DNA of 64,000 nucleotides from the human T2T-CHM13v2.0 reference genome, Homo sapiens (GCF_009914755.1 NC_060925.1), one strand, 5' to 3'. Shown: positions 4,256-63,190, counted from the first letter of the stretch. The notes: a model not told the origin generated them from the sequence alone. Program-made: numbers and translations.

Positions 4256-6490
4256 AGGACAATATGAACTGATGCCTGGACTATCAGTAACCCCACTGCA
4301 CAGGCACACGATGCTCTGGGACATAACTGGTGCCTGGAAATCACCATGGTCCTCATATCTCCCATGGGAATCCTGTCCTGCCTCGAAGGAGCAGCCTGGG
4401 CAGCCATCACACCACGAGGACAGGAAGCACCAGCACGTTTCACACCTCCCCCTTCCCTCTCCCATCTTCTCATATCCTGGCTCTTCTCTGGGCAAGATGA
4501 GCCAAGCAGAACATTCCATCCAGGACACTGGAAGTTCTCCAGGATCCAGATCCATGGGGACATTAATAGTCCAAGGCATTCCCTCCCCCACCACTATTCA
4601 TAAAGTATTAACCAACTGGCACCAAGGAATTGCCTCCAGCCTGAGTCCTAGGCTCTAAAAGATATTACATATTTGAACTAATAGAGGAACTCTGAGTCAC
4701 CCATGCCAGCATCAGCTTCAGCCCCAGACCCTGCAGTTTGAGATCTGATGCTTCCTGAGGGCCAAGGCATTGCTGTAAGAAAAGGTCTAGAAATAGGTGA
4801 AAGTGAGAGGTGGGGGACAGGGGTTTCTCTTTCTGGCCTAAGGACTTTCAGGTAATCAGAGTTCATGGGCCCTCAAAGGTAAATTGCAGTTGTAGACACC
4901 GAGGATGGTTGACAACCCATGGTTGAGATGGGCACCGTTTTGCAGGAAACACCATATTAATAGACATCCTCACCATCTCCATCCGCTCTCACGCCTCCTG
5001 CAGGATCTGGGAGTGAGGGTGGAGAGTCTTTCCTCACGCTCCAGCACAGTGGCCAGGAAAAGAAATACTGAATTTGCCCCAGCCAACAGGACGTTCTTGC
5101 ACAACTTCAAGAAAAGCAGCTCAGCTCAGGATGAGTCTTCCTGCCTGAAACTGAGAGAGTGAAGAACCATAAAACGCTATGCAGAAGGAACATTATGGAG
5201 AGAAAGGGTACTGAGGCACTCTAGAATCTGCCACATTCATTTTCAAATGCAAATGCAGAAGACTTACCTTAGTTCAAGGGGAGGGGACAAAGACCCCACA
5301 GCCCAACAGCAGGACTGTAGAGGTCACTCTGACTCCATCAAACTTTTTATTGTGGCCATCTTAGGAAAATACATTCTGCCCCTGAATGATTCTGTCTAGA
5401 AAAGCTCTGGAGTATTGATCACTACTGGAAAAACACTTAAGGAGCTAAACTTACCTTCGGGGATTATTAGCTGATAAGGTTCACAGTTTCTCTCACCCAG
5501 GTGTAACTGGATTTTTTCTGGGGCCTCAATCCAGTCTTGATAACAGCGAGGAAAGAGGTATTGAAGAAACAGGGGTGGGTTTGAAGTACTATTTTCCCAG
5601 GGTGGCTTCAATCTCCCCACCTAGGATGTCAGCCCTGTCCAAGGACCTTCCCTCTTCTCCCCAGTTCCTGGGCAATCACTTCACCTTGGACAAAGGATCA
5701 GCACAGCTGGCCTCCAGATCCACATCACCACTCTTCCACTCGATTGTTCCCAGATCCTCCCTGCCTGGCCTGCTCAGAGGTTCCCTGTTGGTAACCTGGC
5801 TTTATCAAATTCTCATCCCTTTCCCACACCCACTTCTCTCCTATCACCTTCCCCCAAGATTACCTGAACAGGGTCCATGGCCACTCAACCTGTCAGCTTG
5901 CACCATCCCCACCTGCCACCTACAGTCAGGCCACATGCCTGGTCACTGAATCATGCAAAACTGGCCTCAGTCCCTAAAAATGATGTGGAAAGGAAAGCCC
6001 AGGATCTGACAATGAGCCCTGGTGGATTTGTGGGGAAAAAATACACAGCACTCCCCACCTTTCTTTCGTTCATCTCCAGGGCCCCACCTCAGATCAAAGC
6101 AGCTCTGGATGAGATGGGACCTGCAGCTCTCCCTCCACAAGGTGACTCTTAGCAACCTCATTTCGACAGTGGTTTGTAGCGTGGTGCACCAGGGCCTTGT
6201 TGAACAGATCCACACTGCTCTAATAAAGTTCCCATCCTTAATGACTCACTTGTCAACTAGTGGACTAATTAACCCTCCACCAAAAAAACACAAAGTGCTT
6301 CTGTGAGACCAATTTTGTGCTAATGAGCATTGAGACTGATGCTTTGTAAGTCACACCACAACAAATATTGATTGAGGGCGCTGCATGTGCTGGGTACATT
6401 TCTTGGCACTTGGGAATCAGTAGTCAAGCGAAACCCTTGCCTTTGAGAGTTTATGGTCTGGATAATATAAATAAACAAGTAAGCATATGT
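4256..6490 (+). other. SLAMF8: SLAMF8 3' UTR with AATAAA signals at 6222-6227 and 6470-6475
   Basis: follows the stop codon; two canonical hexamers visible; exact cleavage site is inferred. Confidence 0.7.
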
Positions 6491-6912
6491 CAGATGTTGT
6501 TAGTTTCTGTTAAAGACAAGGCAGAGTAAAGGGCTAGAGAACAATCTGTTGGGGAGACAGGGTCTGTCTTAGATAAAGCAATCAGATGACACCCTCAATG
6601 GGGTGACATTTGAACAGAGGCCCAGTGAAGTGGAGGAGTGAGCATGCAGTGACAGAGTGTTCCAGACAAAGAGACCAGAAAATGCAACGGCCCTAAAATG
6701 GCAGCATGGTTGGTGTTTGCAAAGAAGAGAGTGGAGGCCAGAGGGGCTGGATCCAAACAAGGGAGAGAGAGGGGAAGGACAAGAGTACAGAGAGATGGCC
6801 TGGGGCCACATCATATGGGACTTCGTCGGAATGCCCCTTTGTTGGAGTTACAATGACAGAAAGAACCCCTCGAGAGTCCAGATATCAGACTCCTCCCAGA
6901 ACACCCTCTACC

Positions 6913-10230: not shown

Positions 10231-10639
10231 CTGCAGGTGAGAAGAGAAAGGATCTGATTTAAGGCCTGGGCAAGGGAGCCAGTTCTTCCTATGCTGGGAG
10301 TTCTGGTATGAAACCCCAAAGAGTCCAAGATTTCTGAATCCAAACCTGGCCTTCCAGGTCATTGTGAAGGTATATTTGTCAAGCTAGGAGAATAGAACAT
10401 ATTTTACGTAATAATGTGTTAGCTCAACTTACAATTACAAATGTTATGGGTGGGCCTCAATATGCGGACCCCTCCCCCTGGACTTTTTCCATCATAATTC
10501 CCTCCCACCCCCTGAAACTGACACCTCCCCCATGACTAAGAGCAAACCCCCAGCTCTCGCTGCAGCTCAGAAGGAGCACAGCAGTGTGGGTCTGGAGTCA
10601 CACTCAGGACAGCGGGCTCTGATTTCCTGGAGAACTGAT

Positions 10640-11527
10640 TCGCGGGTCCACAGCACTCATTCTCTCAGCACGTCTTTAGTGAGTACCCACTCCATGCCAG
10701 ACACACTAGGAATAGAGCTGTGGGCATGACAGGCGAGTCTCTGCATTCATGAATCTTGCAGACTTGTCAGGCAGAAACAGACACTGTACAAGTGTACACA
10801 AATGTTTAATTAAAACTGTGCTAATCTCTATAGAAGAAAATAGCTGAAAACCAAGAGCCAGAATAACAAGGGATCAAAATATAGCTGGCGGGAGTACAGA
10901 GGGAAGGGCCTCCCTGAGGAAGGAGAGTCAAGCTGAGGCCAGTGGGGAGAGGAGGAGTCAGCAAAGCAGAGTGGAGGAGCTGCCATGCTGGGAATGAGCA
11001 TCCATGAAAGCCCTTCCAGAAAGATCTCTGCCTGTGTAAGCATCTGGGGGAAGGTCCCCAGGGCCAGAGGGCAATGAGCAGGAGGGACTCTGGGAGGAGA
11101 GGACGGCAGAGGTCAGATCATGCAGGGTCTGATAGGACATGGAGAATTTAAAAGTTAATTATAAATGTAAAAGCAGACCACTGAAGAGCTTTAAGACAGG
11201 AAATGACATGATCAGACTCACATTTTAAAAGATCACGCTGGCAGCTGCATGGAGAATGGATTGAAGGTGCCGAGAGTGAAGGCAGGAAAATGAAGTTATT
11301 GCAGGAATCCTAGGAAAAAACCATCATAGCTTGGAATGAAGGTGGGGAGAGAGAGGGAGACAAGTGGATGGCTTCAGTGCATATTTAGGAGCTAGAAGAG
11401 AATAGACAAGACTTAGTATCCTTGGTTGAGGGAGGGGTCAAGGATGACACTGAGGTCTCTGACATGAGTAACCAGGCAGATGGAGGTACCATTTACCAAA
11501 CCTGGAAATACAGAAAGAGTTAGTTTT
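10640..11527 (+). mobile_element. L2 LINE fragment, interrupted at its end by an Alu
   Basis: L2-type motifs (gaaatgacatgatcagactcacattttaaaagatcac, gagtcaaggatgacactgaggt-like). Confidence 0.65.
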
Positions 11528-11820
<293 letters not shown>

Positions 11821-11906
11821 AGAAAGAGTTAGTTTTAGGGTGAAGTCAGAAGTTAATTGATCCTTAATTATCAGGGAAGAGGGGCTTTAAAAGGAACAAA
11901 TTCTTG

Positions 11907-12552
11907 GAGGCTGAGCAATATATTGGGTTGAATCATATGAAAATTTCATTTTTTAAGTGTAAAAATAGTCAAACACAGGTAATTTCATATGATTCAATCT
12001 AACAATTTAAATGTAAGATGACTTGAGGAAGAAAAGTCATCTCTTCAGCTGCCCTGACTCCACCTCCTATAAGGACAACTGGGACATGCCTGTAACCTAG
12101 TAGATGTTGGCAGAGCTCCTTCAACATGAACCTGGGCATGGAGGGACTGCAAGACAAGAGGGCCTCCCACAGCACTCTCAGCCCACACTGGTCGGGGGCC
12201 ATGGTGTCCTGGTCAGCTTCTCTACCACCTGGACTGAATCCTGCCTGCCCAGCTCCAGAAAGTCCTGAAACATTCAGGAGCCAAGGTTCAGAATGGCAGG
12301 GAGTGATGGAACTGCCTCAGCAACCATGGAGAACTGTCCTTGACCCCAACCCCTCTGAATCCAACCCACCTCATGCCTAGTCCTGCAGCATTCAGAGCCC
12401 CATATAGATTGTGGAAGTGAGGCCCCTGATGCTGTCTGAGGAGCCTTTCCAAGCAACAGGGGCAGTGACTTGGCCAGGCAGGCATGGTCAGACACAGAAG
12501 GGCAGTGCATCAGTCATTCCAAAGTTGCTGGCTTCATAGATACCGTGATTGT
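11907..12552. repeat. Left arm of 646-bp inverted duplication
   Basis: position x pairs with 26658-x with no indels; mirrored ORFs 12126..12380(+)/14278..14532(-) are identical. Confidence 0.97.
11921..12004. mobile_element. MADE2-like mariner MITE (~84 bp, terminal inverted repeats) in the left arm
   Basis: tattgggttgaatcatatgaaa...aatttcatatgattcaatctaa, matches MADE2 TIR pattern. Confidence 0.75.
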
Positions 12553-14105
12553 CCCTATGCCCACCCCTGCTGGGGAGCATAGCAGCTGGAAGACTTCTTT
12601 CCCTCTCAGCCAACCTGGGCCCTCAGAGGCCTTAAGATGGAGATGACTCAGCTATTGGCAGCGCCAGCTCAGCACCCTCGATTCCAGACAGACTCGGCTC
12701 TTCTCTGTCCCTTGCACCTGACATACTCATGTACTCTGCCCCTTTAACCAGGCTTCCCCCTCTGCCTCCCAGCTGAGAATATCCTTCTTTATCCATCTTG
12801 GTCTCCAGCCATCACTTCCAGGCTCAGCCCCAGGCACTCCTCCTCTCAGAAGCCTTTTCCTCAAGTGGTCTCATAGCATCAACTCTCCCAGCTTTGCATG
12901 AGCCTGAATCAACAGTTGTGTGCATTGTTCTTTAATTTTTCTAAATGAGATTAATCATCTCACTTGGAAGGCTCCATGTTCCTAGAAGGATCAGGTTTAA
13001 CACACAGTCCTACTGGTGACACTCAGTAAGCACATCGCCAAAACACACTTTTTAACGAAGTGGTTAACTCAGAGGGTGGGGAACATGCAGCTAGACAAAA
13101 TGGGCATTCTCCAGATATCTCCTCCACTGAGGAAGGCAAAACTCTCAGGCCAAGAGATTCCACATCTGCACCTCCTCTTCCAGGCAGTATAATCAGTCGG
13201 CTGGGTTCAGACAAACTTCTGCACCTCTTAGGGACCTCTTAGCCACCCAGGAGGAGATAGGCAGCTCCTTACTAAAGTCTCACCTCCTGGAGATGGGGGT
13301 TAGCTCTTCCTGCTGCAGTTTGCCTGTCTCCTCCATCCCCTTTCTTTCTTGGAAACAATATTTATTGAGTGTGTGCCATATGCCTGGCACTTTTTAGGAG
13401 CTTAAGTACATTAGTGAATAAAGCAGACAAAGACCCTTGCCTTGTGCCCCTCCTTGTGGAGCTTGCAGTGTGGGGAAAGGCGAGGACAAGTCAATTAGCA
13501 AACATCGTAACAAATAAATGTTACAGCATGTTGGAAGAGGATAAGTGCTACAGATTAAAGGGAAAAAAGCAGTGTAGGAGGGGGGGATAAGGGCGATGAG
13601 GAGCGCAGGCAGGTGGGTGCTGCAATCTTAAACGAGGTGGCCGTGGTAGACATCACTAAGAGGGAGAAAACTGAGCAAAGATTTGAAGGACGTGAGAATT
13701 AAGCCATTGGGAAATCCAGAGGAGAGCCATTCTGGGCAAAGAGAACAGCCAGAACAAGGACCCTAAGGTGTTCAAGAAACAATGAAGAGCCAGTGATGCT
13801 CAGGGGAGAGAGCCAGGAAGAAGAGTGATCAATTAGGTCAGAGAGGTGACATGGATGGCCTGGGGCACTAGTGTAAGGAACTTGATCTTGGGAAGCCATT
13901 TCAGGGGTTTGAGCAGAAGAATGATTTAACTATTCCTCTGGCTTCTCTGCTGAGAATGAACTGAAGGTGAGAGAGAGGAAGCAGGGAAATCAGTCAGGAC
14001 ACTGCTGCCGTAATCCAGGCAAGAGATGAGGGTGGCTGTGAGCTGGGAGGTAACAGGAAAGAAGGGTTTGCTTCTGGATTTGCACTGAAGACAAAGCCAA
14101 TAGAT

Positions 14106-14751
14106 ACAATCACCGTATCTATGAAGCCAGCAACTTTGGAATGACTGATGCACTGCCCTTCTGTGTCTGACCCTGCCTGCCTGGCCAAGTCATTGCCCCT
14201 GTTGCTTGGAAAGGCTCCTCAGACAGCATCAGGGGCCTCACCTCCACAATCTATATGGGGCTCTGAATGCTGCAGGACTAGGCATGAGGTGGGTTGGATT
14301 CAGAGGGGTTGGGGTCAAGGACAGTTCTCCATGGTTGCTGAGGCAGTTCCATCACTCCCTGCCATTCTGAACCTTGGCTCCTGAATGTTTCAGGACTTTC
14401 TGGAGCTGGGCAGGCAGGATTCAGTCCAGGTGGTAGAGAAGCTGACCAGGACACCATGGCCCCCGACCAGTGTGGGCTGAGAGTGCTGTGGGAGGCCCTC
14501 TTGTCTTGCAGTCCCTCCATGCCCAAGTTCATGTTGAAGGAGCTCTGCCAACATCTACTAGGTTACAGGCATGTCCCAGTTGTCCTTATAGGAGGTGGAG
14601 TCAGGGCAGCTGAAGAGATGACTTTTCTTCCTCAAGTCATCTTACATTTAAATTGTTAGATTGAATCATATGAAATTACCTGTGTTTGACTATTTTTACA
14701 CTTAAAAAATGAAATTTTCATATGATTCAACCCAATATATTGCTCAGCCTC
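14106..14751. repeat. Right arm of 646-bp inverted duplication
   Basis: reverse complement of 11907-12552; I found 5 substitutions by eye. Confidence 0.97.
14654..14737. mobile_element. MADE2-like MITE, duplicated copy in the right arm
   Basis: mirror of 11921-12004. Confidence 0.75.
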
Positions 14752-17700
14752 GTGACCCAGTGGATGTGGTGGGAGAGTGGTGAGAGAGAAAAAGGAGTTA
14801 AACAAGGACGGAGTCCCCATCAGCTGAGACAGGGAAGACAATAGGTAGGGTAGAGGCAGTATGTGGGACATGCTACATTTGAGACATCTGTTAAACATCT
14901 AAGCAGGTATGTGAGTGTGGAATGCAGGAGAAAGGGCTGGCCTGGCTGTATAAATTTTGGGTATTATTGGCATGCAGGTCTTAGGTGAATAGGTAGAGAG
15001 GTGGTGGGGGACTGGGGAGGAGATTATTCCCATCCTCATTCCTCACTTTCTCAGACTGTGTGCTACAGTCTCGGGACGGCTAATGTTTATTGAAAAGACA
15101 GAAGCAGATTTCCCCACAGGAACAACGTTGTAATAGCAGGTTAGTCTCCTGACCGAGGATCTGTTGCTCAATGTTTTCATGGCAGTGATCACAAACATGG
15201 CCTACCTTTAAGTCCTTAGTAAACTGTGAGTGAGAAGCCTGCATGCGGGACAGGAAAGAGCTTTCAACAGAGTCTGTTAAACTGTGACCTATCCTGCAGA
15301 GCTGAGCCTGACATGGCCCACGCCCTATGCCTGGGAGGCCCAGAGCTCCTGTGAGGCTGTTCCCCAGGCCCTGGCTGACTCTGCTCACCAGGTGATGAGC
15401 GCGCTTGGGGAGGGCAATGTTCACATGCACCTCTGAGAAGGATCTGGGAGAACACACGTGGCATTTTCCACCTCATGTCCTGGAGGTAACCACAGGCATT
15501 AGCTGTTGTCATTAGACTCCTCCCTAAGCTGAGGGAGCAGTCTCTAATACAAACTTTGTCCGCCACATTAATTTTAAGACAGGTCAGCGCAGAGAGGCAT
15601 TCTGAGTTCTCAAGAAAGTAGATGTTGAGAAGGGAAGAGACACAGCCCCGGCCCTCAGGGGTAAACCTAGTCTGATGGAAATGGGAGGATAACAGGATAC
15701 TCCCAAGACAGGGTGAGGATAACAAACACTGTCTGGGAGCAGGCAAGAGACTGGGATAAGAGGACAGGGTAAGGTCAGTCTGCCTTTCTGAAGAAAGAGG
15801 ACAAGGAGAGAGAGGTAGGGGAGTTTCACGGACCAGCCTTGGCAAAGGGCTGAGGTGAGGTGGGGACGGTGCTGGGACAGGGACTTGGAGCCACAACCCC
15901 AGTGTTTGGGGAGGCACAGGAGCCAGTTCAGGTGAGTGACTGCAGGGAAGAGCCACAAGGCTGCAGATGGCATCTGGGCAGAAGAAGGGGGCAGACCAGG
16001 GGGCATCTGAAGGGACTGACAGGAGGACGCTTCCCAGGCCAGAGGCAAGCCAGAAGTGGGGCCTGGATTGGGCTAAAGGAGTTCACTTCCAAGGCTGAAT
16101 GAATTCTCCCAAAAACGGTGAAGAAAATCTATGTGCCCTCCCACCCACACACCTGCCAGGAAGGTCCCTCCTCAGCTCTGGGAAAGCTGTGTGGCAACCC
16201 TTCAGGAGCGACCCTCCACCTGGGAGGGGTTGTCAAAGTCAGGGCTACAGAGGGCACCACAGTGAGCCCTGGGCTCAGAGGGAGACCATCAGGGGCCTGA
16301 GTGCCAGGAACTGAGGTCAGGCAGATGGGAAACGGCACGGGAGAACACACCCTGGCCCAGGTGGGCCACCCTGAGGATTCTGGCAGCTTATCCCCAGACT
16401 GACTCTGGGACCCTGTCGAGCTTGTGTTTCAGGTGCTTCCTGTTATCATTAGGATTATTATTACTAGTGAGGATTCTTGTCATTATTCACACCTGCATGT
16501 GGATTCCAGGACTCAGAGGCAAGTCCTGGTTCTCCTCCTTCTCTACTGGTGGCTTTCTGGACTCCTTGCCTCTTCCCCCAGATGGTGAGCCATCTCCAAA
16601 TTCAATCCCAAGGCTTCATTCTTTGTACTCCGTCCCCCTCCCTGTGGACCTCCCACTCCCCCAGCCTCTGCCGTTGACCTCTGTGTGGTTAGATCCGTGC
16701 CTCCAGGCCTGTCCTCTTGTGAGAGATGCAATTACTTTCTAGGGGTGTGGAGGGTTGAGGATCAACCATTTGCTGAGCCGTATGTTCCAGGCTCTGTAAT
16801 ATACCTGTCACACAAAACAGCCCTATTACTATTCCATTTTACAGACAAAGAAATTGAGGCTTTGGAAGCTTATTAAATAACTATAAACCCACATCTGTCT
16901 GGCTCCAAAACTGAAGCTTTTTTTCTTTGCAGATGGGAACATGGTTAACTCACAAACATGTATTACAAGTTTTCTTCCTCCTCCCTTCTTTAATTCCTCA
17001 AGAAACCTACACAGGAGTCCACTATCACCTCAAACTCAGCCTCTGCGACAATGTGATCAGCAGTTTCACCCCATCCTCCTCTGCTCAATTTCCTGCCTTT
17101 GTCAAGGCTTCAGTCTCCTCCTTGGTGCTCAGTGTCCCATCCTGCCCATCCTGCTGAAATGCATCTAAGAAGACTGGGGAGGGCAATGGCCACAGAGGGG
17201 TGGCAGAAGGCCATCCTGTCCACTCCCCACCGGCAGGCACAATGACCACGCCCAGCTCCTCCAGATTCCCCAAAGTAGCCACTATCCCCACCTTGTCTGC
17301 AAGTTCCCATGTCCTCCACACACCCCTCTGCTGCACATTCTTCCCAACCTAACTGCAAAGAACTGAATGGAATCAGTTTTGTTTCCATACACCAGGAATA
17401 AATAAAATGGTTACTCCAGATGGGCTGAATGAACGTTGAGTTAACTCCAGAATGTTAACTGTTAACTCCAGAGCAGGGGTTTCCCAGGTTCCCACCAAAT
17501 CAGGGAAATGAGCCATGAGGAGACTCCCTGGGCAGCTTAGTGGACAGGGCTACAGATTCAGTCCCCTGCCTCCAGGCAGGCCCCAACCTAAACCCATAGG
17601 AGTGAAGTAGTTTTTGTAACTCTGGAAGGATCATGATTGGGTAATTCCCAAAACTTCCTTGTTCCCAGAGAGGCAAAATAATAATAATTATTATTATTAA

Positions 17701-17797
17701 CCCCTCCCCAGAGTCACTGCAGTCTGACTGGGCCTTGAGTAGCTGAAATGTAATTGAGCAGCATACATGGTAATAGTTACTCAAAGAGGAGCACACA

Positions 17798-18163
<366 letters not shown>

Positions 18164-18559
18164 CTAGAGGATGACTTCCTAGAGCCTGGGGAGAGAGTCA
18201 GAGAAGGAACTGAAACAATGAGGACTCACAGGCATCTCTTGAATAGATTTCCCATGGCTAGATGCCCTGGGAGACAAATGTAGGCAAATTCTGTGGATGC
18301 CAACGCAGGTTTCTGACGGCTATCAAAAGAGTAACCTGGAACCAAGGGGATACAAATTCTCTCAATAATTCTTCAGTGACCTGAGGAACCAGAATTCAGC
18401 TCCAGCAAGGCGGGGGAGAGACGGAAAAGGCGGAACTAGGAAGTAGGATGAAGACAATTTATGTAGTATTTAATAGAAGTAGCATAACTTTGTGCTGTTT
18501 GCATCTCTCTAGAAAAATAGAGAAAAATCAAGATGTACTTGAGATTTCCATTCTTGAGG

Positions 18560-19000
18560 CAACACTTGTGTGCCCAGCGTTCTGCTTGCCTGGGGTGACA
18601 TGGTCCACCTAACTTTCCCAAGCCAGTTGTTAAATGCAGCCATTATTAAAAAGTAAATTACATACATTTATAATTAAATGATATTAAAACAAAGGCGATA
18701 AGTACTCAAAACTCACCACTTCCTGATGACTTTACTACAGTTCACTATTACCTAAGCTCTTAAAGTTATTTACTTCCTCCATTGTATCTGTATCATGGAA
18801 ATACTATACAATCATGTGCTACTAAACATTTCTCCCAATTCCATGCCAGTCACATCATGTTGGTAGCTTGAATTCAGCCATAGTGGAAGCATTGACATCA
18901 TGGAAATCAGCAAAGGCTACAAATCAGGGCTTCCCAGTCCCTACCCCACCCTACACCCTACTCCCAAAGCCACTGTTGAACATATGTCACCACAAGTGCT
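18560..19000. mobile_element. hAT-Tip100 (Arthur1-like) DNA transposon remnant
   Basis: ggtagcttgaattcagccatagtggaagcattgacatcatggaaatcagcaaaggctacaaatcagggc resembles Arthur1. Confidence 0.5.
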
Positions 19001-20349
19001 CTCCTCCAGCACTGAACAAGGTTTCATGCAGGAGAAATGAACAAAAAACACCAAGGCATCCCTGAAGCAAAATTGTTCAAACAGAAACTTCCTTCCCTCG
19101 TTCTCCTGGGGTGGTAAGTACAGTGACGACTGTGATCTCAGCATTGGATTTAGGAAATCTCTACCTTCCCTGTTGACTCACCCTAACAGGAAGCTGTTCT
19201 CAGAGTCTCTATAAAATCTCTCTTGCTGCTTTTTAGTGAGCCTTTCTTGCCAGAGCCTCACTGGTCCCACCCCCCAAATAGAGGCCAAGTCTGATCATGG
19301 CTCCCTTGTTCCTGGAATAGGGAAGATTATATCATTCAACAACCTGCACAGCCAACTGGCTGCCTCTGTCCCTCAGCACCTTTCAGGAAGCTAAGCTGGA
19401 GGCTCCTCAGACAGGGAGCACCCTCCCCAAGTCATCCTATACCATCCCCTGCCTTAGGGGATATTTTGCCTTAGGGCAAAAATATGCCAGGCACAGTGCC
19501 CTGCTGAAGATCTCTTCATCTATGACAAGTCGTCTTATAGGTGCTCATAAATATGACCAAATAAATGAAGGGATGGATGGTTCCTGGAGTTCTCTGCTCT
19601 TCTCCTTATTTAACGTCCTTTCCCTATACCTCTTCCCATTCCCAAGAACTCCCCACCTTCCCACCCCCAAGACAGTGGTCTCTGGTTCCTTTTGCCTCAT
19701 TACTATCTCTCATGTCTCTCAGCACGCTCTATAAAAGCAGAGCTGGCAATGCCATCACCCCTTTGCAAATACCCAAGTCATCTTGAGGGTTTCCTAGTTA
19801 TGTGTTACTAAGAAGTGTTTAGGGGCTTCCTAAAGACACTTTGAGGCCCATGCACACCCCACACCTCCTGTGGCCCTAGAATAGGAGCAGGAAAAATGAG
19901 GAAGACTAGCTTCTCCTCAAGAGAAAAGAGACAAAGAGAGAAGAAAGAGGCTGGGCTCTCAACAAGCAAGCAGCTGGGGAAAGGAAAGTAGAACGAAGTG
20001 ACCTTGAAGTACTGTGCTCTTCTGAACACCTCCTACCAACTAGACCAGACAAGTGTCCAGTTGTGTCCCTGTTGCAGCCATCCTGTATGGAGTGCAACCA
20101 CTTTGTCCACTAGAGGCAGCTGAATTAGAAATACAATGCTCTGGGGTCCCTAAGAGTAGAACTTGGATCAAGGGATAAAAGCTATATGGGGACAAAAACC
20201 GGGTTCAGAGAAATGTTCTGTTGAATATTGACAGTCAGAGGCCAAGTGGCCTGCCTTGGAAGGTAGTGAGCTGCCATTGGAGGTTGTCAAGAAGACGTTA
20301 CATACCCTTTGTCAGGAATGCTATAGAAGGAATTCAAATGCCAGAGAAA

Positions 20350-20560
20350 CAGCCTGCTGTCCTGGAATCAAACATGCCTAGATCAAATCCTGAATTATCT
20401 TTATTATCTTTGTTGCCTTGGTCAAGATACCTAATCCCTCTGAGCCTCAGTTTATTCATCTGTATAATGGGGATAATACACAACCTCATAGGACTAAAGT
20501 AAGGAATAAATAAGACAAAAAATCAAAAAGCACCTAACACTTAATAGGTGCTCAATAAAT
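20350..20560. mobile_element. MIR SINE
   Basis: core ctctgagcctcagtttattcatctgtataatggggataata. Confidence 0.75.
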
Positions 20561-20900
20561 GCCAATCCCCTTCCCACCAAAAGGGGGAGCTGGGTTAGTT
20601 GGCCTTGAAGGTCTTTCTACACCAGAGAGTATGACTCTAAAACACTTCCTGGCTATTAAGAAAGAAGGCATACATCTGAAAGAGATAAAAGAAGTCAAGA
20701 TTAGGTCAATGAGGGGAAGAGAAAGAAGGATGCTAAGAATGGTCAGGGATCATTTAGAGGTCATCCATGACAGAGCCGTGTTTCCTCTCAACTGACCTTC
20801 TAGAATAAAATGGAAAAGTAAGATTGGGGATTTAAAGTCCAGCCTGAGGGGCCTCAGTTTCCCTATCTGTATAGTGAAGGAGTAGGATTTTTTTTAGGTC

Positions 20901-20967
20901 AGACTTCAGAGTAATCATATTGAACTTTACTTCATAATGCTCAGTAAACACAGCTCATTATAAATCC
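20901..20967 (-). ncRNA. SNORD64: SNORD64 (HBII-13)-like box C/D snoRNA copy, probably a retro-pseudogene
   Basis: minus strand GGATTT-ATAATGA-GCTGTGTTTA-CTGA-GC-ATTATGA-AGTAAAGTTCAATATGATTACT-CTGA-AGTCT: 67 nt, terminal stem, boxes C/D'/C'/D; closely matches HBII-13 as I recall it; A8 tail 5 nt downstream (T-run 20888-20895). Confidence 0.85.
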
Positions 20968-21155
20968 AGCCAAGGCCTTTCCCAGCAACTCATGCAGCTA
21001 TATAAAATCACTAATACCTGCAGAGTGCACATCCCTTCCCAAGGACAGGGGGCCTGGGAGAATGAGATGACTAGTTTTATGTGACAATGGATGTGAAACA
21101 GCAACAGTATTGACCGACACCGAATTAAGGGGAAAATATGAAGGAAAAAAATCAA

Positions 21156-21178
21156 AGACAGACAGACAGACAGACAGA

Positions 21179-21223
<45 letters not shown>
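21156..21223. repeat. Compound microsatellite (GACA)n(CA)n
   Basis: direct reading. Confidence 0.95.
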
Positions 21224-21226
<3 letters not shown>

Positions 21227-23337
21227 GCAACCTGCCAAAAGAATAATATTGAGATCCTGGTTTTGATAGAACTAAATATAACATCTTATATTTCCACAAG
21301 CAAATTGCCCAACAAATTGAAATGGAAATATTCTAATGTTACTACAGACAGATATAATGTCAACAACTTGCTATTCTCCTCAATAATTCATTATAAACCA
21401 ATTTAAAGACCTACAGTACATTGAAAACAACCACCAAAATATTCCAGAGTTAAGTGTAAACAAATAATATGAAAGAATCAAGAAGGATGACCAAATAAAA
21501 TCAAGGCAGGCCAAACAAATGAAACACAAAGTCCAAAAGGATTCTGAGGAAGGTCTAAGCTAAGTTCTAACATCCCTGAAACAAGGGACCAAAGTGGTAA
21601 GGTAACACCATCCAAGTTGTAGCATGGAAATGATAGAACCCACACTACTTTTCCTGATACTTGTCTCCTAGCAGACATGAAACTGCTGATTTCAGGAACT
21701 TACCCTTTCAAATATATTTTTGCTACCAAAGCACAAATAATCTAACATAAAATGAACTCTTTAAATACAAATAAATTACATATAAAATAAGAAACAGCCC
21801 AGACAATTCAGATGTACAAGCACCTACCCTCTGCATCACTATACTGTCCTCATCAGCTCATCAAATACAAAATCATTCACATTCATCAAATACCCAGTTG
21901 AACTATGAGGTTCCTTCTTAAATCTTGGGCATTTAGGATGGACCTAACTGTTTTTTTTTAAGTTTAATCTTTCTCAGCACAGGAAATTAATCCAGCCAAG
22001 CTTCTCCTATTAATCATTTCTATTCCATATTAGAAATTCTTAAATTATAGGCAAGTGGGCATTGCATTAGCAAAGTAGATTCCAATGCCCAACAGAGATG
22101 ATGTTGAACAAAGAAGGATTAGTAGAGCTTGTCTACTTGTCTGCATCCCCCTCCTTGCTGTGTGACCACCTGGTCCCTTTATCAACAAAGGAACATCTAT
22201 AACACTGCCCACTTTACTTACTGTTTGCTTAGCAAATATATCCTTGGAACTTTATCTCAAACATTACTCTTCAATTAAGCACTCCCCATCTCACTAAACA
22301 AGAGAGGACGTCTTGCGCCTATTAACAAAAACAGTGCTTATTGATTTCCACTTTTGAACCAAAAATGACTAAAACATCCCCCAAAATACATTGTAAATAT
22401 CATGACAAGGTGTTTAACAAAACAAGTGCTGGTAAATACTAAATAGCTCAATTAATCCCTATCTAGGAGTGGCTGACTACTTCAGGGTGTAAGAACGTGG
22501 AGCTGGATCTCAGAAAGGCCTAGATTCTCACCACAGAATATTCCATCATAAGGCAGTAACTGTAAAATATCTAAAAACTTTTTTTTTCTAGCATAAAGTA
22601 ATGCTGCCACACTCATTCACTTGGTATTTCTCAAACATCTCCTGCAGAATGGGCTCTGCACAAGTTGACCAACTGCAGACAAATGAAAAAAAAAAAAGAA
22701 CCACAAAAATAATTGTTCTAAAACACCAGCAGCATCTAGGTGAAGGGATTTACCATACTCTCCGAGTTCCATAATATATGCTATATAAATATTATTCCCC
22801 CTCCTTCCTGCACTTCACCCAGCACCCTAGAACTGTGGCACTTAGTTTTTTAATATAAGAGGTTGTAGTCTTATTTTCACATGTCCTTGTTTCTGTCTCA
22901 CCGGATGCCTGTGCCTTCTGTGCTCCAAGGACTGGTTTCCTTTTAGCTTTCAGCAACATACAAAGACTCCCTAGACCTTCAGAGCACATTATTCTCAATA
23001 GAAAATCTTGACATGTGAAAACTTTGAATATTTAGAAATGGCAAGTGTATTGCACTTTGTCGGTTCCTCAGTTTATTTTACGGTCGTAGATATTCTGAGC
23101 TAATTCTTTTTGTCTTTGTTTTCCTTTTATCTGCACTTTGTATGTTGTTCAGAGGAGTTGCCCTGGATGGCCCCTTCCAGCTCTGACTGCCAGGGATCTA
23201 AGCAGGAGGGAGGAGAGGGGGCGTGGTCGAGGCGAGCGACAGAAGCAACCCTCCCCGGCCCTGGGCAGGGTTCGCCACCCCGTGCCCAACCTCCGTGGAA
23301 CGCGGACAGCCACTTCGGACTCACGTCTCAATGTTTC

Positions 23338-23343
23338 TTTATT
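23338..23343 (-). terminator. VSIG8: VSIG8 polyadenylation signal AATAAA
   Basis: tttatt on +, ~415 nt after the stop codon. Confidence 0.8.
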
Positions 23344-23757
23344 GTGCTAACACTGCTGCCTCAGAGCTCAGACCTCACACACAGAACAATTCGTCCAGAC
23401 AGACCCCCACCCACCCGGCCCCCGGGGCCCTCTGCTTAGGCTGGGGACACCAGGCCTCCGGCCTCAGCCGCTCTAGGACACTCAGCCTCCTCCTCCCTCC
23501 CTCTCCCCCAAGCCTTCGGTCCCGGGGGTGCGGAGAAGGCTCAGGATCGCCTTCCTCCGCCCTCGCCCGCCCCTTCCCACTTTTGGGGAGGAGGCTCTGC
23601 CTCCCTACGCATTTCCTTAGGGAAATGCCTTCACCCCCAGCCGCCTGGCAGCCTGGGGCGAGCGAGGTCGTCCCCAGCCCCGACGTGTCCCCAGCTGCAG
23701 ACAGAGAGCCCCGCGCCCTCCTCCTGGCTGGGGCGCAGCCCGGCCCGGCGCGCGCGC

Positions 23758-24031
23758 TCACACCAAGAGGCCGTTCTTGCACTGCACCGGCCCCTCGGCG
23801 CAGTCAGCCGGCTCCGCGCTCTTGACCTTGACGTAGACCGGGGAGGGGCCCGCTTCGCAGGCGGCGGCGGCGGTGCAGGGCGCCAGGGCCACGTCCTCGG
23901 GGCCGCCGCAGGGGGGAGGCGCGTACTTGCGGCGCAGGGAGCGGCTGACGTTCTGCGTCGGGTACCCCAGGAGGTGGGTGACGCGGCTGCCGCGCCCGCT
24001 GGCCTTGCACCCGGGCGCCACGGCGTCCTCT
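23758..24031 (-). CDS. VSIG8: VSIG8 exon 7, cytoplasmic tail (EDAVAPG...CKNGLLV*)
   Basis: ttttccacAG acceptor, phase 2, TGA 23760-23758; the seven exons sum to 1245 nt = 414 aa + stop. Confidence 0.95.
23762..24031 (-). CDS. SNHG28: SNHG28/C1orf204 putative ORF exon 2, same acceptor and frame as VSIG8 exon 7 but leaving through a donor inside the last VSIG8 codons
   Basis: TTG GT|GTGAGC donor at 23761-23756 overlaps VSIG8 GTG-TGA; 270 nt, phase 2-2. Confidence 0.65.
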
Positions 24032-25086: not shown

Positions 25087-25528
25087 CTGTGGAGAGAAGT
25101 GGAGGCAGGTCAGGCTTTCTCACAGCCTGGTAGGTGCCTGAGGGAACAGCACCAGGAGGTGCCAGGTCAGGGGTTAATGGGAAAGAGGGAGAGGGACCCA
25201 GGGGGTCTCTTAGCCCTGGAACACCCAGTGGGGAAGATATGGGGAGATGCAAGTTAACCCCTTGTGTCAGCATGCTTCTCCCAGGGCTTCCAGCTGCTCT
25301 GGGCTCTAGAGCTCAGAGTGGAAGCTGTGCTGGGCGAGCTTGACCCAGCTCAATAGGGTCAAGATCGTACCCACTGATCTTGGCCCACTTGTAGGAAAGG
25401 GGCTGGGAGCCCCCACTGGCAAATGGATGGCAGTGGAAAGGCAGAAGCAGCTGAGGCTCCAAACCAGAGCCCAGCCTCCTCCAGTTCAACCCTCCCAACC
25501 ACCCAGCCCTCAAGACTGCTGCACCTAC

Positions 25529-26752: not shown

Positions 26753-26974
26753 CTTGGTTTATGGAGCTGTGGAAGGACTCCTGGTAGGACAGCTCTGAGT
26801 GGTAGCTGTGCTGGGAGGTGTAAGACCCAGCTCGATAGGGGTAATGGTGCCCACTGATCTTGGCCCACTTGTAGGAGAGGGGCTGGGAGCCCCCACTGGC
26901 ATAGCACTTCAGCACCACATCGTTGCCATATGTCATGTGGCCCTCTGTCCAGCACATGGGCACTGCAGGTCGTG
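26753..26974 (-). CDS. VSIG8: VSIG8 exon 4, first half of Ig domain 2 (ARPAVPMCW...LKCYASGGSQPLSYKWAKISG...SSINQ)
   Basis: ccttgcAG / G|GTGAGA; 222 nt, phase 1-1. Confidence 0.96.
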
Positions 26975-59711: not shown

Positions 59712-60123
<412 letters not shown>

Positions 60124-60743
60124 TGACCAGCTTTTCTGAAAACAAGTCTCTTGTTCTTATACAGATATTCCTCGCAGAATGGTAGGGATAGCAAGGAGTG
60201 GGGGTCACTAGTGTGTGTCTATACTTAGTCTAAAATCATCAGGAATTAAAGTAAATTTCTGTTCTCTAGGTTTTCCTCTCTCCATGAAAGATTTTCCTTT
60301 ATGAAAGAAGAAATAATTATCTCTCTAGGACCACACAGTGGGTTTGAAGCAATATAATTTGTTACAGACTCTTACAATCTTTGATATTGGTAATTTTAAA
60401 TTCTTTCTTACGATTAAATTACTTTAACCCCCACAAAAAGCCATATTCAGGGAGTTAGAAATCGCTAAATGACCTGCAGAGGCCTACCCTTAAGATCTAA
60501 GGGTAGCTCTCTGCCAGCTCATTGAGTTGGTGGTGAGGAGGTCAGTGAGTTAGAATTCAGCAAGAACACAGACTAACTGTGTGATTTTTTCTTTTTTTCA
60601 AAATTCTCCGACCCTGAAGGAGTTAGATAACAATTAAATGAAATCACCTGTTTCAGAAAATGTCTAAACACAGGAAAGGATGTGTCATTAATGCAGCCAC
60701 TGTGCTCCTGACCAGAGGCAGGGGGATGGCCCCACTTGTCCTA

Positions 60744-61400
<657 letters not shown>

Positions 61401-62614: not shown

Positions 62615-63190
62615 ACAGTTGATCTCATAGAAGTACAGAGTAGAATGGTGGTTACCAGAGGCTGAAGAGAGGAAGGGGAGGGGCATGGGGAGAGGTTGGT
62701 CAGTGAGTGCGCAGTTACAGTTAGATAGGAGGAATAAGTTCTGGTGCTCTATTGCACAGAAAGGCCACTATAGTTAATAATAATGTACTGTATATCTCAA
62801 AAGAGATACACAATATCTAGGAGAGGATTTTGAGAAATATAAATGTTATAAGATTAAATGAGATGGCAAGGTCTAGTATTTGATAGCGCAATAGAATGAC
62901 TAGAGTTAACAATAATGTATATTACTATATATAAATGTATATTAATATACATGTATACAATAATATATATAAATATACATGTATACAATGTATATTAATT
63001 TACATTGTATATTTCAAACTAGCTAGAAGAGAGAATTTTGAGTGATCTCACTGCAAAGAAATGACAAGTGTTTGAGGTAATGGATATGCTAACTACCCTG
63101 ATTCAATCATTACACAATGTATATACATGTATCAAAACATCACACTATACCCCATAAATGTGTACAATCATTATGTGTCAATTAAAAACA
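62615..63190 (+). mobile_element. L1MA-type 3' end with an internal AT-rich expansion
   Basis: gatctcatagaagtacagagtagaatggtggttaccagaggctg...cccataaatgtgtacaat..gtcaattaaaaa. Confidence 0.85.

What the first reader, a model, noticed from the sequence alone, without database searches (positions are those of the whole stretch)
11907..14751. 646-bp, ~99% identical inverted duplication around a 1553-bp spacer
Seen: 11907-12552 is the reverse complement of 14106-14751 with no indels and about 5 substitutions. The arms are mostly unique sequence rather than a dispersed repeat. Established: closely spaced, near-identical inverted repeats mediate recurrent NAHR inversions, are homogenised by gene conversion, and form long dsRNA when transcribed. 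Inference: the spacer 12553-14105 may be a toggling inversion polymorphism. Both arms lie in the 13.5-kb SNHG28 intron ~1.7 kb upstream of the 10230 acceptor, so the pre-mRNA could fold a ~650-bp nearly perfect hairpin (ADAR, PKR/MDA5 or Dicer substrate, or a splicing bridge).
Basis: partly seen in the sequence, partly recalled or inferred. Interest (0 to 1): 0.75.

Follow-up and report, generated by a model that had tools for sequence, protein, structure and literature searches.

The report
Recent inverted copy in lncRNA intron
A 646-base stretch of a human intron sits backwards 1.6 kb away inside an old repeat, likely pasted there by one recent DNA-copying slip; the pair is already listed in print as a barely expressed predicted RNA hairpin and is likely an ordinary, neutral duplication.

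Summary
It is not an artefact and not new: Barak et al. 2020 (Table S8) list the same pair in hg19 as one of 197 long, tight intronic inverted duplications, barely expressed (FPKM 0.003), with an editing index of 4.4% on one arm that may rest on 5 calls. Added here: the right arm interrupts an old L2-like repeat, replacing about 3 bp, with no target-site duplication or poly(A). So the left arm is the donor and the CHM13 spacer is in ancestral orientation. Junction motifs (a perfect 8-bp hairpin; an 8/9 repeat) point to a microhomology-guided template switch, likely after the orangutan split if no conversion occurred. The locus was not found in two usable inversion catalogues or a single-genome map; its closest analogue, HsInv0061, inverted but probably only once. 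A common toggling inversion, an immune dsRNA or a splicing bridge is unsupported. A rare inverted allele and gene conversion stay untested (no ape or population data). Verdict: real, catalogued, likely neutral; interest 0.18.

The parts
11907..12552 (+). Left arm; inferred donor (original) copy
   Evidence: donor status inferred from the interrupted repeat at the other arm
14106..14751 (-). Right arm; inverted copy inserted into an old repeat, replacing about 3 bp, no target-site duplication or poly(A)
12553..14105 (.). 1553-bp spacer (hairpin loop; would-be inverted segment), in ancestral orientation in CHM13
   Evidence: its right end is collinear and on the same strand as the repeat beyond the right arm
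13341..14105 (.). Old dispersed repeat (L2-like; name recalled), part left of the insertion; profile match 13672-14102, left limit approximate
14752..14985 (.). Continuation of the same old repeat right of the insertion; profile match 14804-14979, E 1.1e-7
11919..12008 (.). ~85-bp palindromic mini-transposon inside the arm (MADE2-like; name recalled), copied passively into the right arm (~14650-14739)
14100..14122 (+). Inner junction: perfect 8-bp stem with 7-nt loop straddling flank and insert
   Evidence: 12 of 3000 random joins reach a stem of 8 or more
12536..12558 (+). Donor-side imperfect version (6 of 8 pairs) of that hairpin, straddling the left arm's inner end
14732..14740 (+). 8-of-9 direct match to the last 9 bases of the flank (14097-14105), ending 11 bases before the end of the insert
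   Evidence: only such site in the arm; P about 0.002 for a 17-position stretch, chosen after the fact
10231..23761 (-). SNHG28 intron (13,531 bp) that holds both arms
   Evidence: hub annotation

Best explanation
The right arm is an inverted copy of 11907-12552 that interrupts an old repeat 1.55 kb away, likely made in one microhomology-guided template switch during DNA replication or repair within the last several million years, and the pair is likely a neutral leftover whose rare SNHG28 pre-mRNA is predicted to fold a hairpin that ADAR would lightly edit in the nucleus. Shown: arm identity, two copies found, insertion point with about 3 bp lost, no target-site duplication or poly(A), ancestral spacer orientation, junction hairpin. 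Inferred: the polymerase left the template at 14105, copied the donor backwards from 12552 to 11907 and resumed at 14752 (order 3-2-1-4, or its mirror 1-4-3-2, of the four-point model), aided by the quasi-palindrome at 12536-12558. Inferred: no common inverted allele; no selected function.
For: Flanks added separately to an alignment of 12 other copies of the repeat end and begin 3 columns apart; the 50 nt after the arm fit the continuation better than 1498 of 1500 random window 50-mers. A profile of those copies hits both flanks in order and on the same strand, 23.4 bits on the right against a best of 1.5 among 200 shuffles. Junction stem of 8 bp: 12 of 3000 random joins. Schloissnig 2025 (passages): inverted duplications are the commonest inversion-like class (277 of 733; median 284 bp) and mostly show 1-15 bp microhomology, read as replicative. 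Loytynoja and Goldman 2017 (passages): type 3-2-1-4/1-4-3-2 makes an inverted repeat, 31% of 794 events. Divergence 0.77% (95% CI 0.25-1.81%); P(5 or fewer) = 0.20 at 1.23%, 1e-4 at 3.1%. Expression and editing: Barak 2020 Table S8. No catalogue row.
Against: No ape or population sequence was available, so the pre-insertion state is inferred from an old, diverged repeat. The join score landscape is flat (111.0 against 110.3 for a join about 20 bp away), and 35 of 1000 shuffles of the right 50-mer reach its score. Only 1 of 8 single copies beat all 100 shuffles with a collinear hit in pairwise tests (L011; L022 passed by 0.5 but out of register). The junction motifs were picked after the fact, and the 8/9 match does not sit at the junction itself. 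An event that inverted the spacer at birth (23% of short events) followed by re-inversion gives the same sequence. Four of 5 differences lie in the inner 137 bp (P 0.016 for either end, 0.10 anywhere), which hints at conversion or error-prone synthesis. Absence from catalogues is not genotyping.
Confidence: 0.68

Rival explanations
1. The spacer is an uncatalogued NAHR inversion polymorphism between the two arms (rare allele, or common and recurrent).
For: Same architecture as HsInv0061 (1674 bp, repeats of 654/656 bp; minor allele 0.01), which is in the same Barak table. Longest perfect runs of 225 and 283 bp. Repeats under 1 kb were not entered in the 612-candidate set unless already predicted, so this locus was never genotyped there.
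Against: No row with matching coordinates in Porubsky 2023 supplements (373 regions, 41 genomes, T2T coordinates), in Moreira-Pinhal 2026 supplements (merge of five studies with 195 people plus paired-end predictions; HsInv0061 found as control) or in the NA12878 map (control found). Only 6 of 319 inverted duplications picked without prior evidence were polymorphic in 54 genomes. HsInv0061 is one of 3 of 24 NAHR inversions with haplotypes fitting a single origin, so even the analogue does not toggle.
Confidence: 0.15
2. The duplication arose together with an inversion of the spacer (order 3-1-2-4, or staggered breaks), and recombination between the new arms later turned the spacer back; the locus has then flipped at least once.
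For: This order gives 23% of short template-switch events; the final sequence would be identical (inference).
Against: Needs a second event and its spread to the reference haplotype. The junction keeps the flank's two bases rather than the donor's at 14104-14105, which fits a strand arriving from the spacer end or a snap-back at the donor hairpin (inference).
Confidence: 0.07
3. The duplication is much older than its 0.8% divergence suggests and is kept alike by gene conversion between the arms.
For: The outer 509 bp hold 1 difference and the inner 137 bp hold 4. Close inverted repeats undergo conversion (established knowledge; short tracts discussed in Aguado 2014, passages).
Against: The clustering is weak (P 0.016 to 0.10). 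Sharp ends with no diverged outer shoulder and an intact junction hairpin fit a young event. Error-prone synthesis near a switch point would cluster differences the same way (recalled).
Confidence: 0.12
4. The hairpin is functional RNA: an innate-immune ligand, a Dicer substrate or a splicing bridge for SNHG28.
For: Predicted duplex of about -1370 kcal/mol; on the SNHG28 strand 2 of the 5 differences are G-U pairs. Editing index 4.39% on one arm.
Against: Intronic; FPKM 0.003 and 0.002 in two GTEx pools, about 3 and 2 reads on the weaker arm; the editing index equals 5/114 at its smallest reading. No annotated exon between or flanked by the arms; 9.0 kb from the donor. No Rfam family at threshold in the arms. 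Barak 2020 find such structures nearly absent from mRNA but not from pre-mRNA. The GTEx pools may under-sample introns (recalled: poly(A)-selected), so the nuclear level could be higher.
Confidence: 0.04
5. Assembly artefact of CHM13.
For: None found.
Against: Same arms, identity and spacer length in hg19, with a constant offset of 832,795 at both ends; arms differ at 5 sites; the insert splits a repeat cleanly.
Confidence: 0.01

Closest known systems
Barak et al. 2020 (PMC7006430) Table S8, hg19 chr1:159812701-159813347 / 159814900-159815546
   Same: This very structure: 646 bp, 99.226%, spacer 1553; one of 197 inverted duplicated sequences over 300 bp and 96% in RefSeq transcripts; 25th by identity in the 34 rows seen.
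   Different: The table gives only coordinates, expression and editing; nothing on origin, donor arm or polymorphism in the part read.
HsInv0061 (chr6; InvFEST)
   Same: Intronic 1.7-kb segment between ~655-bp, >99% inverted repeats; in the same Barak table.
   Different: Both orientations are seen in people (minor 0.01); its repeats are classed as transposable elements; no inverted allele is reported here.
Four-point template switch, type 3-2-1-4 / 1-4-3-2 (Loytynoja and Goldman 2017, PMC5453318)
   Same: Reverse-complement copy of nearby sequence that creates an inverted repeat with an unchanged spacer; perfected quasi-palindrome at the junction.
   Different: Their events are short clusters confirmed with an outgroup; this one copies 646 bp from 1.55 kb away and has no outgroup here.
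Polymorphic inverted duplications in long-read surveys (Schloissnig 2025, PMC12350158)
   Same: Sub-kilobase inverted copy, short microhomology, replicative origin proposed.
   Different: Present in both hg19 and CHM13; presence/absence polymorphism not shown.
Inverted Alu pairs edited by ADAR
   Same: Intramolecular intronic duplex open to A-to-I editing.
   Different: Mostly unique sequence, twice as long and 99% paired rather than about 80%; far lower observed editing and expression.

Membership tests
Long, tight inverted duplicated sequence in pre-mRNA (Barak 2020) | Arms over 300 bp, over 96% identical, both in one RefSeq transcript | tested here: met
   hub annotation
Long, tight inverted duplicated sequence in pre-mRNA (Barak 2020) | Expressed above FPKM 0.01 (the 20 of 197 that may need ADAR) | tested here: not met
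   FPKM 0.0032 and 0.0018
IR-mediated (NAHR) polymorphic inversion | Inverted repeats of 140 bp or more and over 90% identity at both ends | tested here: met
   size range and criteria
IR-mediated (NAHR) polymorphic inversion | Both orientations seen among people | tested here: inconclusive
   No row; none in a cut file; no haplotype assemblies could be read
IR-mediated (NAHR) polymorphic inversion | Recurrence (same haplotypes in both orientations; polymorphic in apes) | not testable with these tools
   needs phased population and ape data
Segmental duplication | At least 1 kb and 90% identity | tested here: not met
   646 bp; size and identity limits as used
Retrotransposed insertion or transduction | Target-site duplication and poly(A) tail | tested here: not met
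   about 3 bp lost, no duplication, no A-tail; the neighbouring Alu does have a 16-bp duplication
Template-switch inverted duplication (3-2-1-4 / 1-4-3-2) | Reverse-complement copy of nearby sequence, return at about the point of departure, spacer unchanged | tested here: met
   model
Template-switch inverted duplication (3-2-1-4 / 1-4-3-2) | Microhomology or quasi-palindrome at switch points | tested here: inconclusive
   inner junction: 8-bp hairpin, 12 of 3000; outer junction: no match at the junction, 8/9 match ending 11 bases inside
Template-switch inverted duplication (3-2-1-4 / 1-4-3-2) | Outgroup shows the empty site | not testable with these tools
   no relatives held for this genome; the coordinate list of Hellen and Kern 2015 was not among the supplements searched
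ADAR-edited non-Alu dsRNA | Clustered A-to-G on the transcribed strand in both arms | tested here: inconclusive
   4.39% and 0 in 15 tissues, 0 and 0 in muscle; computed on the 149 minus-strand As; smallest reading 5/114
Cytosolic MDA5/PKR ligand | Both arms kept in mature, exported RNA | tested here: not met
   both arms intronic in the hub's exon table; unannotated isoforms not excluded
MADE2-type mariner MITE (arm sub-part; name recalled) | ~80 bp, terminal inverted repeats, dispersed copies | tested here: met
   palindrome and 9 aligned genomic copies of 16 short hits; no call confirmed the family name

The most novel reading that the evidence does not exclude
A human-lineage template-switch insertion created a new recombination substrate, and some people carry an uncatalogued inverted spacer (or lack the right arm). 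Flipping would move a repeat-derived AATAAA at 13361 off the SNHG28 strand, and the dated birth of the pair would let one time how fast a 646-bp inverted repeat starts to invert and convert.
Probability: 0.15. Interest if true: 0.4.

Novelty: already known. Interest (0 to 1): 0.18.

Why it matters
As it stands it matters little: one of about 200 such intronic pairs, already tabulated, barely expressed. Its use is as a clean worked example of how a sub-kilobase inverted repeat is born, since the empty site can be read from the interrupted repeat. If an inverted or arm-less allele turns up in pangenomes, it would be a small addition to inversion catalogues near SLAMF8 and VSIG8 and a datable test case for inversion and conversion rates of short repeats.

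Tried and rejected
Transposition as the origin: the mini-transposon lies inside the arm, 12-14 bp from the outer end, and the arm ends are not its ends; human DNA transposons are long extinct (recalled; paper not held). Retrotransposition: no target-site duplication or A-tail. Protein coding: 3 ATG ORFs of 80-84 aa, two being mirror copies in the arms; not pursued. Known RNA family in the arms: only a sub-threshold IRES_Bip match, 17.6 bits against 40. Pairing of the arm with the SNORD64 flank: 33 bp at 79%, E 0.044-0.59, taken as chance. An in-register 9-bp match 42-50 bases inside the spacer: purine-rich, no wider similarity, taken as chance. Pairwise alignments of the right flank to 8 single repeat copies were mostly at shuffle level; a profile was needed. 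A direct genome search with the right flank found only itself. Editing as a mis-mapping artefact of the 5 arm differences: the index was computed on minus-strand As of the left arm and none of the 5 is T/C there, so rejected. Literature: SNHG28 + inversion, 0 papers; inversion + inverted repeats + VSIG8, 0; six coordinates in main texts, 0; 30 papers naming SNHG28 or C1orf204, none on this structure by title or abstract start (listing only). Porubsky 2022 (Cell) was not held. Hellen and Kern supplements held no coordinate list, and one file was not searched.

Full report
Observation. Direct comparison gives 646-bp arms at 11907-12552 and 14106-14751 with 5 substitutions and no indels; identity stops sharply outward and shows 2 mismatches then 4 matches inward. 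Of 61 inverted pairs in the window it is the only long near-perfect one. A search of the whole genome gave 18 matches: the two arms and 16 short ones at arm positions 11-107. These are an ~85-bp palindromic mini-transposon; 9 of the 16 were aligned, and the name MADE2 is recalled and was not confirmed. The rest of the arm and the left half of the spacer matched nowhere else. The tool warns that such searches give lower bounds.

Already in print. Barak et al. 2020 (PMC7006430; abstract, passages, and part 3 of 6 of supplementary file 1, with 34 of the 197 rows of Table S8) list hg19 chr1:159812701-159813347 and 159814900-159815546, 646 bp, 99.226%. Spacer length and the offset at both ends agree with this window. 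So two independent assemblies hold both arms. In a pool of 30 GTEx samples from 15 tissues the editing index is 4.39% on the left arm and 0 on the right, FPKM 0.0032; in muscle 0 and 0, FPKM 0.0018. Only 20 of the 197 structures pass FPKM 0.01; this one does not. Dividing their inosines per transcript by the index gives 149.0, the number of As on the minus strand of the left arm, so the figure refers to the SNHG28 strand. The index equals 5/114 or a multiple, and the FPKM implies about 3 reads on the weaker arm. The editing evidence is in the expected direction but thin.

Which arm is new. The right half of the spacer resembles an old dispersed repeat (L2-like; name recalled). I took all 12 other copies that a genome search with 13880-14105 returned and built a profile. 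It hits 13672-14102 (model 2-488) and 14804-14979 (model 570-760, E 1.1e-7, 23.4 bits) on the same strand; of 200 shuffles of the right flank, 11 gave a hit and the best scored 1.5. Added to the alignment as two separate fragments, the flanks end and begin 3 columns apart; 8 of 12 copies have 3 bases there, 1 has 2, and 3 have none. The 50 bases after the arm fit the continuation with a score reached by 2 of 1500 random window 50-mers and 35 of 1000 shuffles. The best contiguous join was 14103|14754, against arm limits 14105|14752, though rival joins score within 1 bit. Single-copy pairwise tests were mostly at noise level. I conclude that the right arm is an insertion that replaced about 3 bp, that the left arm is the donor, and that the CHM13 spacer is in ancestral orientation. 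There is no target-site duplication or A-tail, unlike the Alu 75 bp to the left of the left arm.

How it arose (inferred). In the four-point notation the order is 3-2-1-4 or its mirror, which makes an inverted repeat with an unchanged spacer and is 31% of 794 human-chimp events in Loytynoja and Goldman 2017 (PMC5453318; passages). The inner junction 14100-14122 is a perfect 8-bp stem with a 7-nt loop; 12 of 3000 random joins do as well. The donor's inner end, 12536-12558, is the same hairpin with 6 of 8 pairs. This fits a U-turn or snap-back at a quasi-palindrome that supplies 6 bases of microhomology. The last 9 bases of the flank recur with one mismatch near the insert's far end; how that was used is unresolved. 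Schloissnig 2025 (PMC12350158; passages) report inverted duplications as 277 of 733 inversion-like variants, mostly with 1-15 bp microhomology. An event that inverted the spacer at birth, followed by re-inversion, cannot be excluded from one sequence.

Age. Five differences in 646 give 0.77% (95% CI 0.25-1.81%). P(5 or fewer) is 0.20 at 1.23% (human-chimp figure from an abstract listed), 0.055 at 1.6% and 1e-4 at 3.1% (gorilla and orangutan figures recalled). Without conversion the event is younger than the orangutan split and may fall on either side of the chimpanzee split. Four of the 5 differences lie in the inner 137 bp (P 0.016 for either end, 0.10 anywhere), a weak hint of conversion or of error-prone synthesis. 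No ape sequence was available.

Inversion. Porubsky 2023 (PMC10150506; abstract, one section, supplement search): 373 regions from 41 genomes in T2T coordinates; no number starting 15897, 15898 or 15984 in 3 supplementary files whose table uses plain coordinates. Moreira-Pinhal 2026 (PMC13629690; abstract, three sections, supplement search): 612 candidates merged from five studies of 195 people, paired-end predictions and inverted duplications of 1 kb or more; no number starting 15984, with HsInv0061 found as control. The hg38 position rests on a recalled offset of +30,210 from hg19; the prefix tolerates about 3 kb of error. 622 of their merged regions were filtered out, and this locus was not genotyped. 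npInv (PMC6044046; passages, supplement search): not in the NA12878 list, control found. Schloissnig 2025: 4 prefix hits, on chr7 and chr17, in a file cut when stored that may not hold the inversion list. Base rate: 6 of 319 inverted duplications without prior evidence were polymorphic. The nearest analogue, HsInv0061, is polymorphic, but Giner-Delgado 2019 (PMC6748972; passages) place it among 3 of 24 NAHR inversions that fit a single origin. Aguado 2014 (PMC3961182; passages) does not mention it. A common toggling allele is unlikely; a rare one is open. The spacer orientation in hg19 was not seen directly.

RNA. The 2845-nt region on the SNHG28 strand is predicted to pair 643 of 646 arm positions in register; 2 of the 5 differences are G-U pairs on that strand. 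The arms lie 9,010 bp after the donor and 1,676 bp before the acceptor with no annotated exon between them, so the hairpin shortens a 13.5-kb intron by 2.8 kb without bridging splice sites. Rfam finds the SNORD64 copy at 20901-20967 and nothing at threshold in the arms. An AATAAA on the SNHG28 strand at 13361 lies in the loop; if used, it would end transcripts before the second arm (use untested).

Verdict. Real, catalogued as a predicted duplex, most likely a young neutral template-switch duplication (0.68). I found no paper on its origin or polymorphism in searches; subscription journals and most variant files were out of reach. Novelty: already known. Interest 0.18.

Noticed in passing
window 25310-25421 and 26791-26901: A 112-bp direct copy at 86% identity: one copy lies inside VSIG8 coding exon 26753-26974, the other in the intron 25087-25528. 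It looks like the remnant of a partial exon duplication.
   Followed up: no
window 13361-13366 (- strand); 13417 and 13513 (+ strand): AATAAA on the SNHG28 strand at the end of the old repeat, inside the hairpin loop; two more on the + strand. An inverted spacer would swap them between strands.
   Followed up: partly
window 11512-11527 and 11821-11836: 16-bp target-site duplication around the Alu that sits 75 bp left of the left arm, inserted at the end of another copy of the same old repeat (11094-11529).
   Followed up: partly
window 59868-60112 and 61079-61323: Inverted Alu-like pair 966 nt apart, 80% complementary, in a CFAP45 intron: an ordinary candidate for A-to-I editing.
   Followed up: no
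window 62929-63012: 84-bp self-palindrome at 84% within a masked repeat; probably another mini-transposon.
   Followed up: no
window 60592-60687: Weak match (63%, E 0.017) to the mini-transposon part of the arm; possibly a decayed copy.
   Followed up: no
window 20901-20967 (-): SNORD64 family match, 87.1 bits against a threshold of 40, 10.7 kb upstream of the intron's acceptor; agrees with the annotation.
   Followed up: partly
window 6361-6840: Another copy of the same old repeat (E 1.3e-6) overlaps the SLAMF8 3' end, whose AATAAA is at 6470.
   Followed up: no
Barak 2020 Table S8: Many of the 34 rows seen share this layout (300-900 bp arms, 1-5 kb spacer, about 99% or more), and at least one is a validated inversion (HsInv0061). 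The table could serve as a list of sub-kilobase repeats never genotyped for inversion.
   Followed up: no
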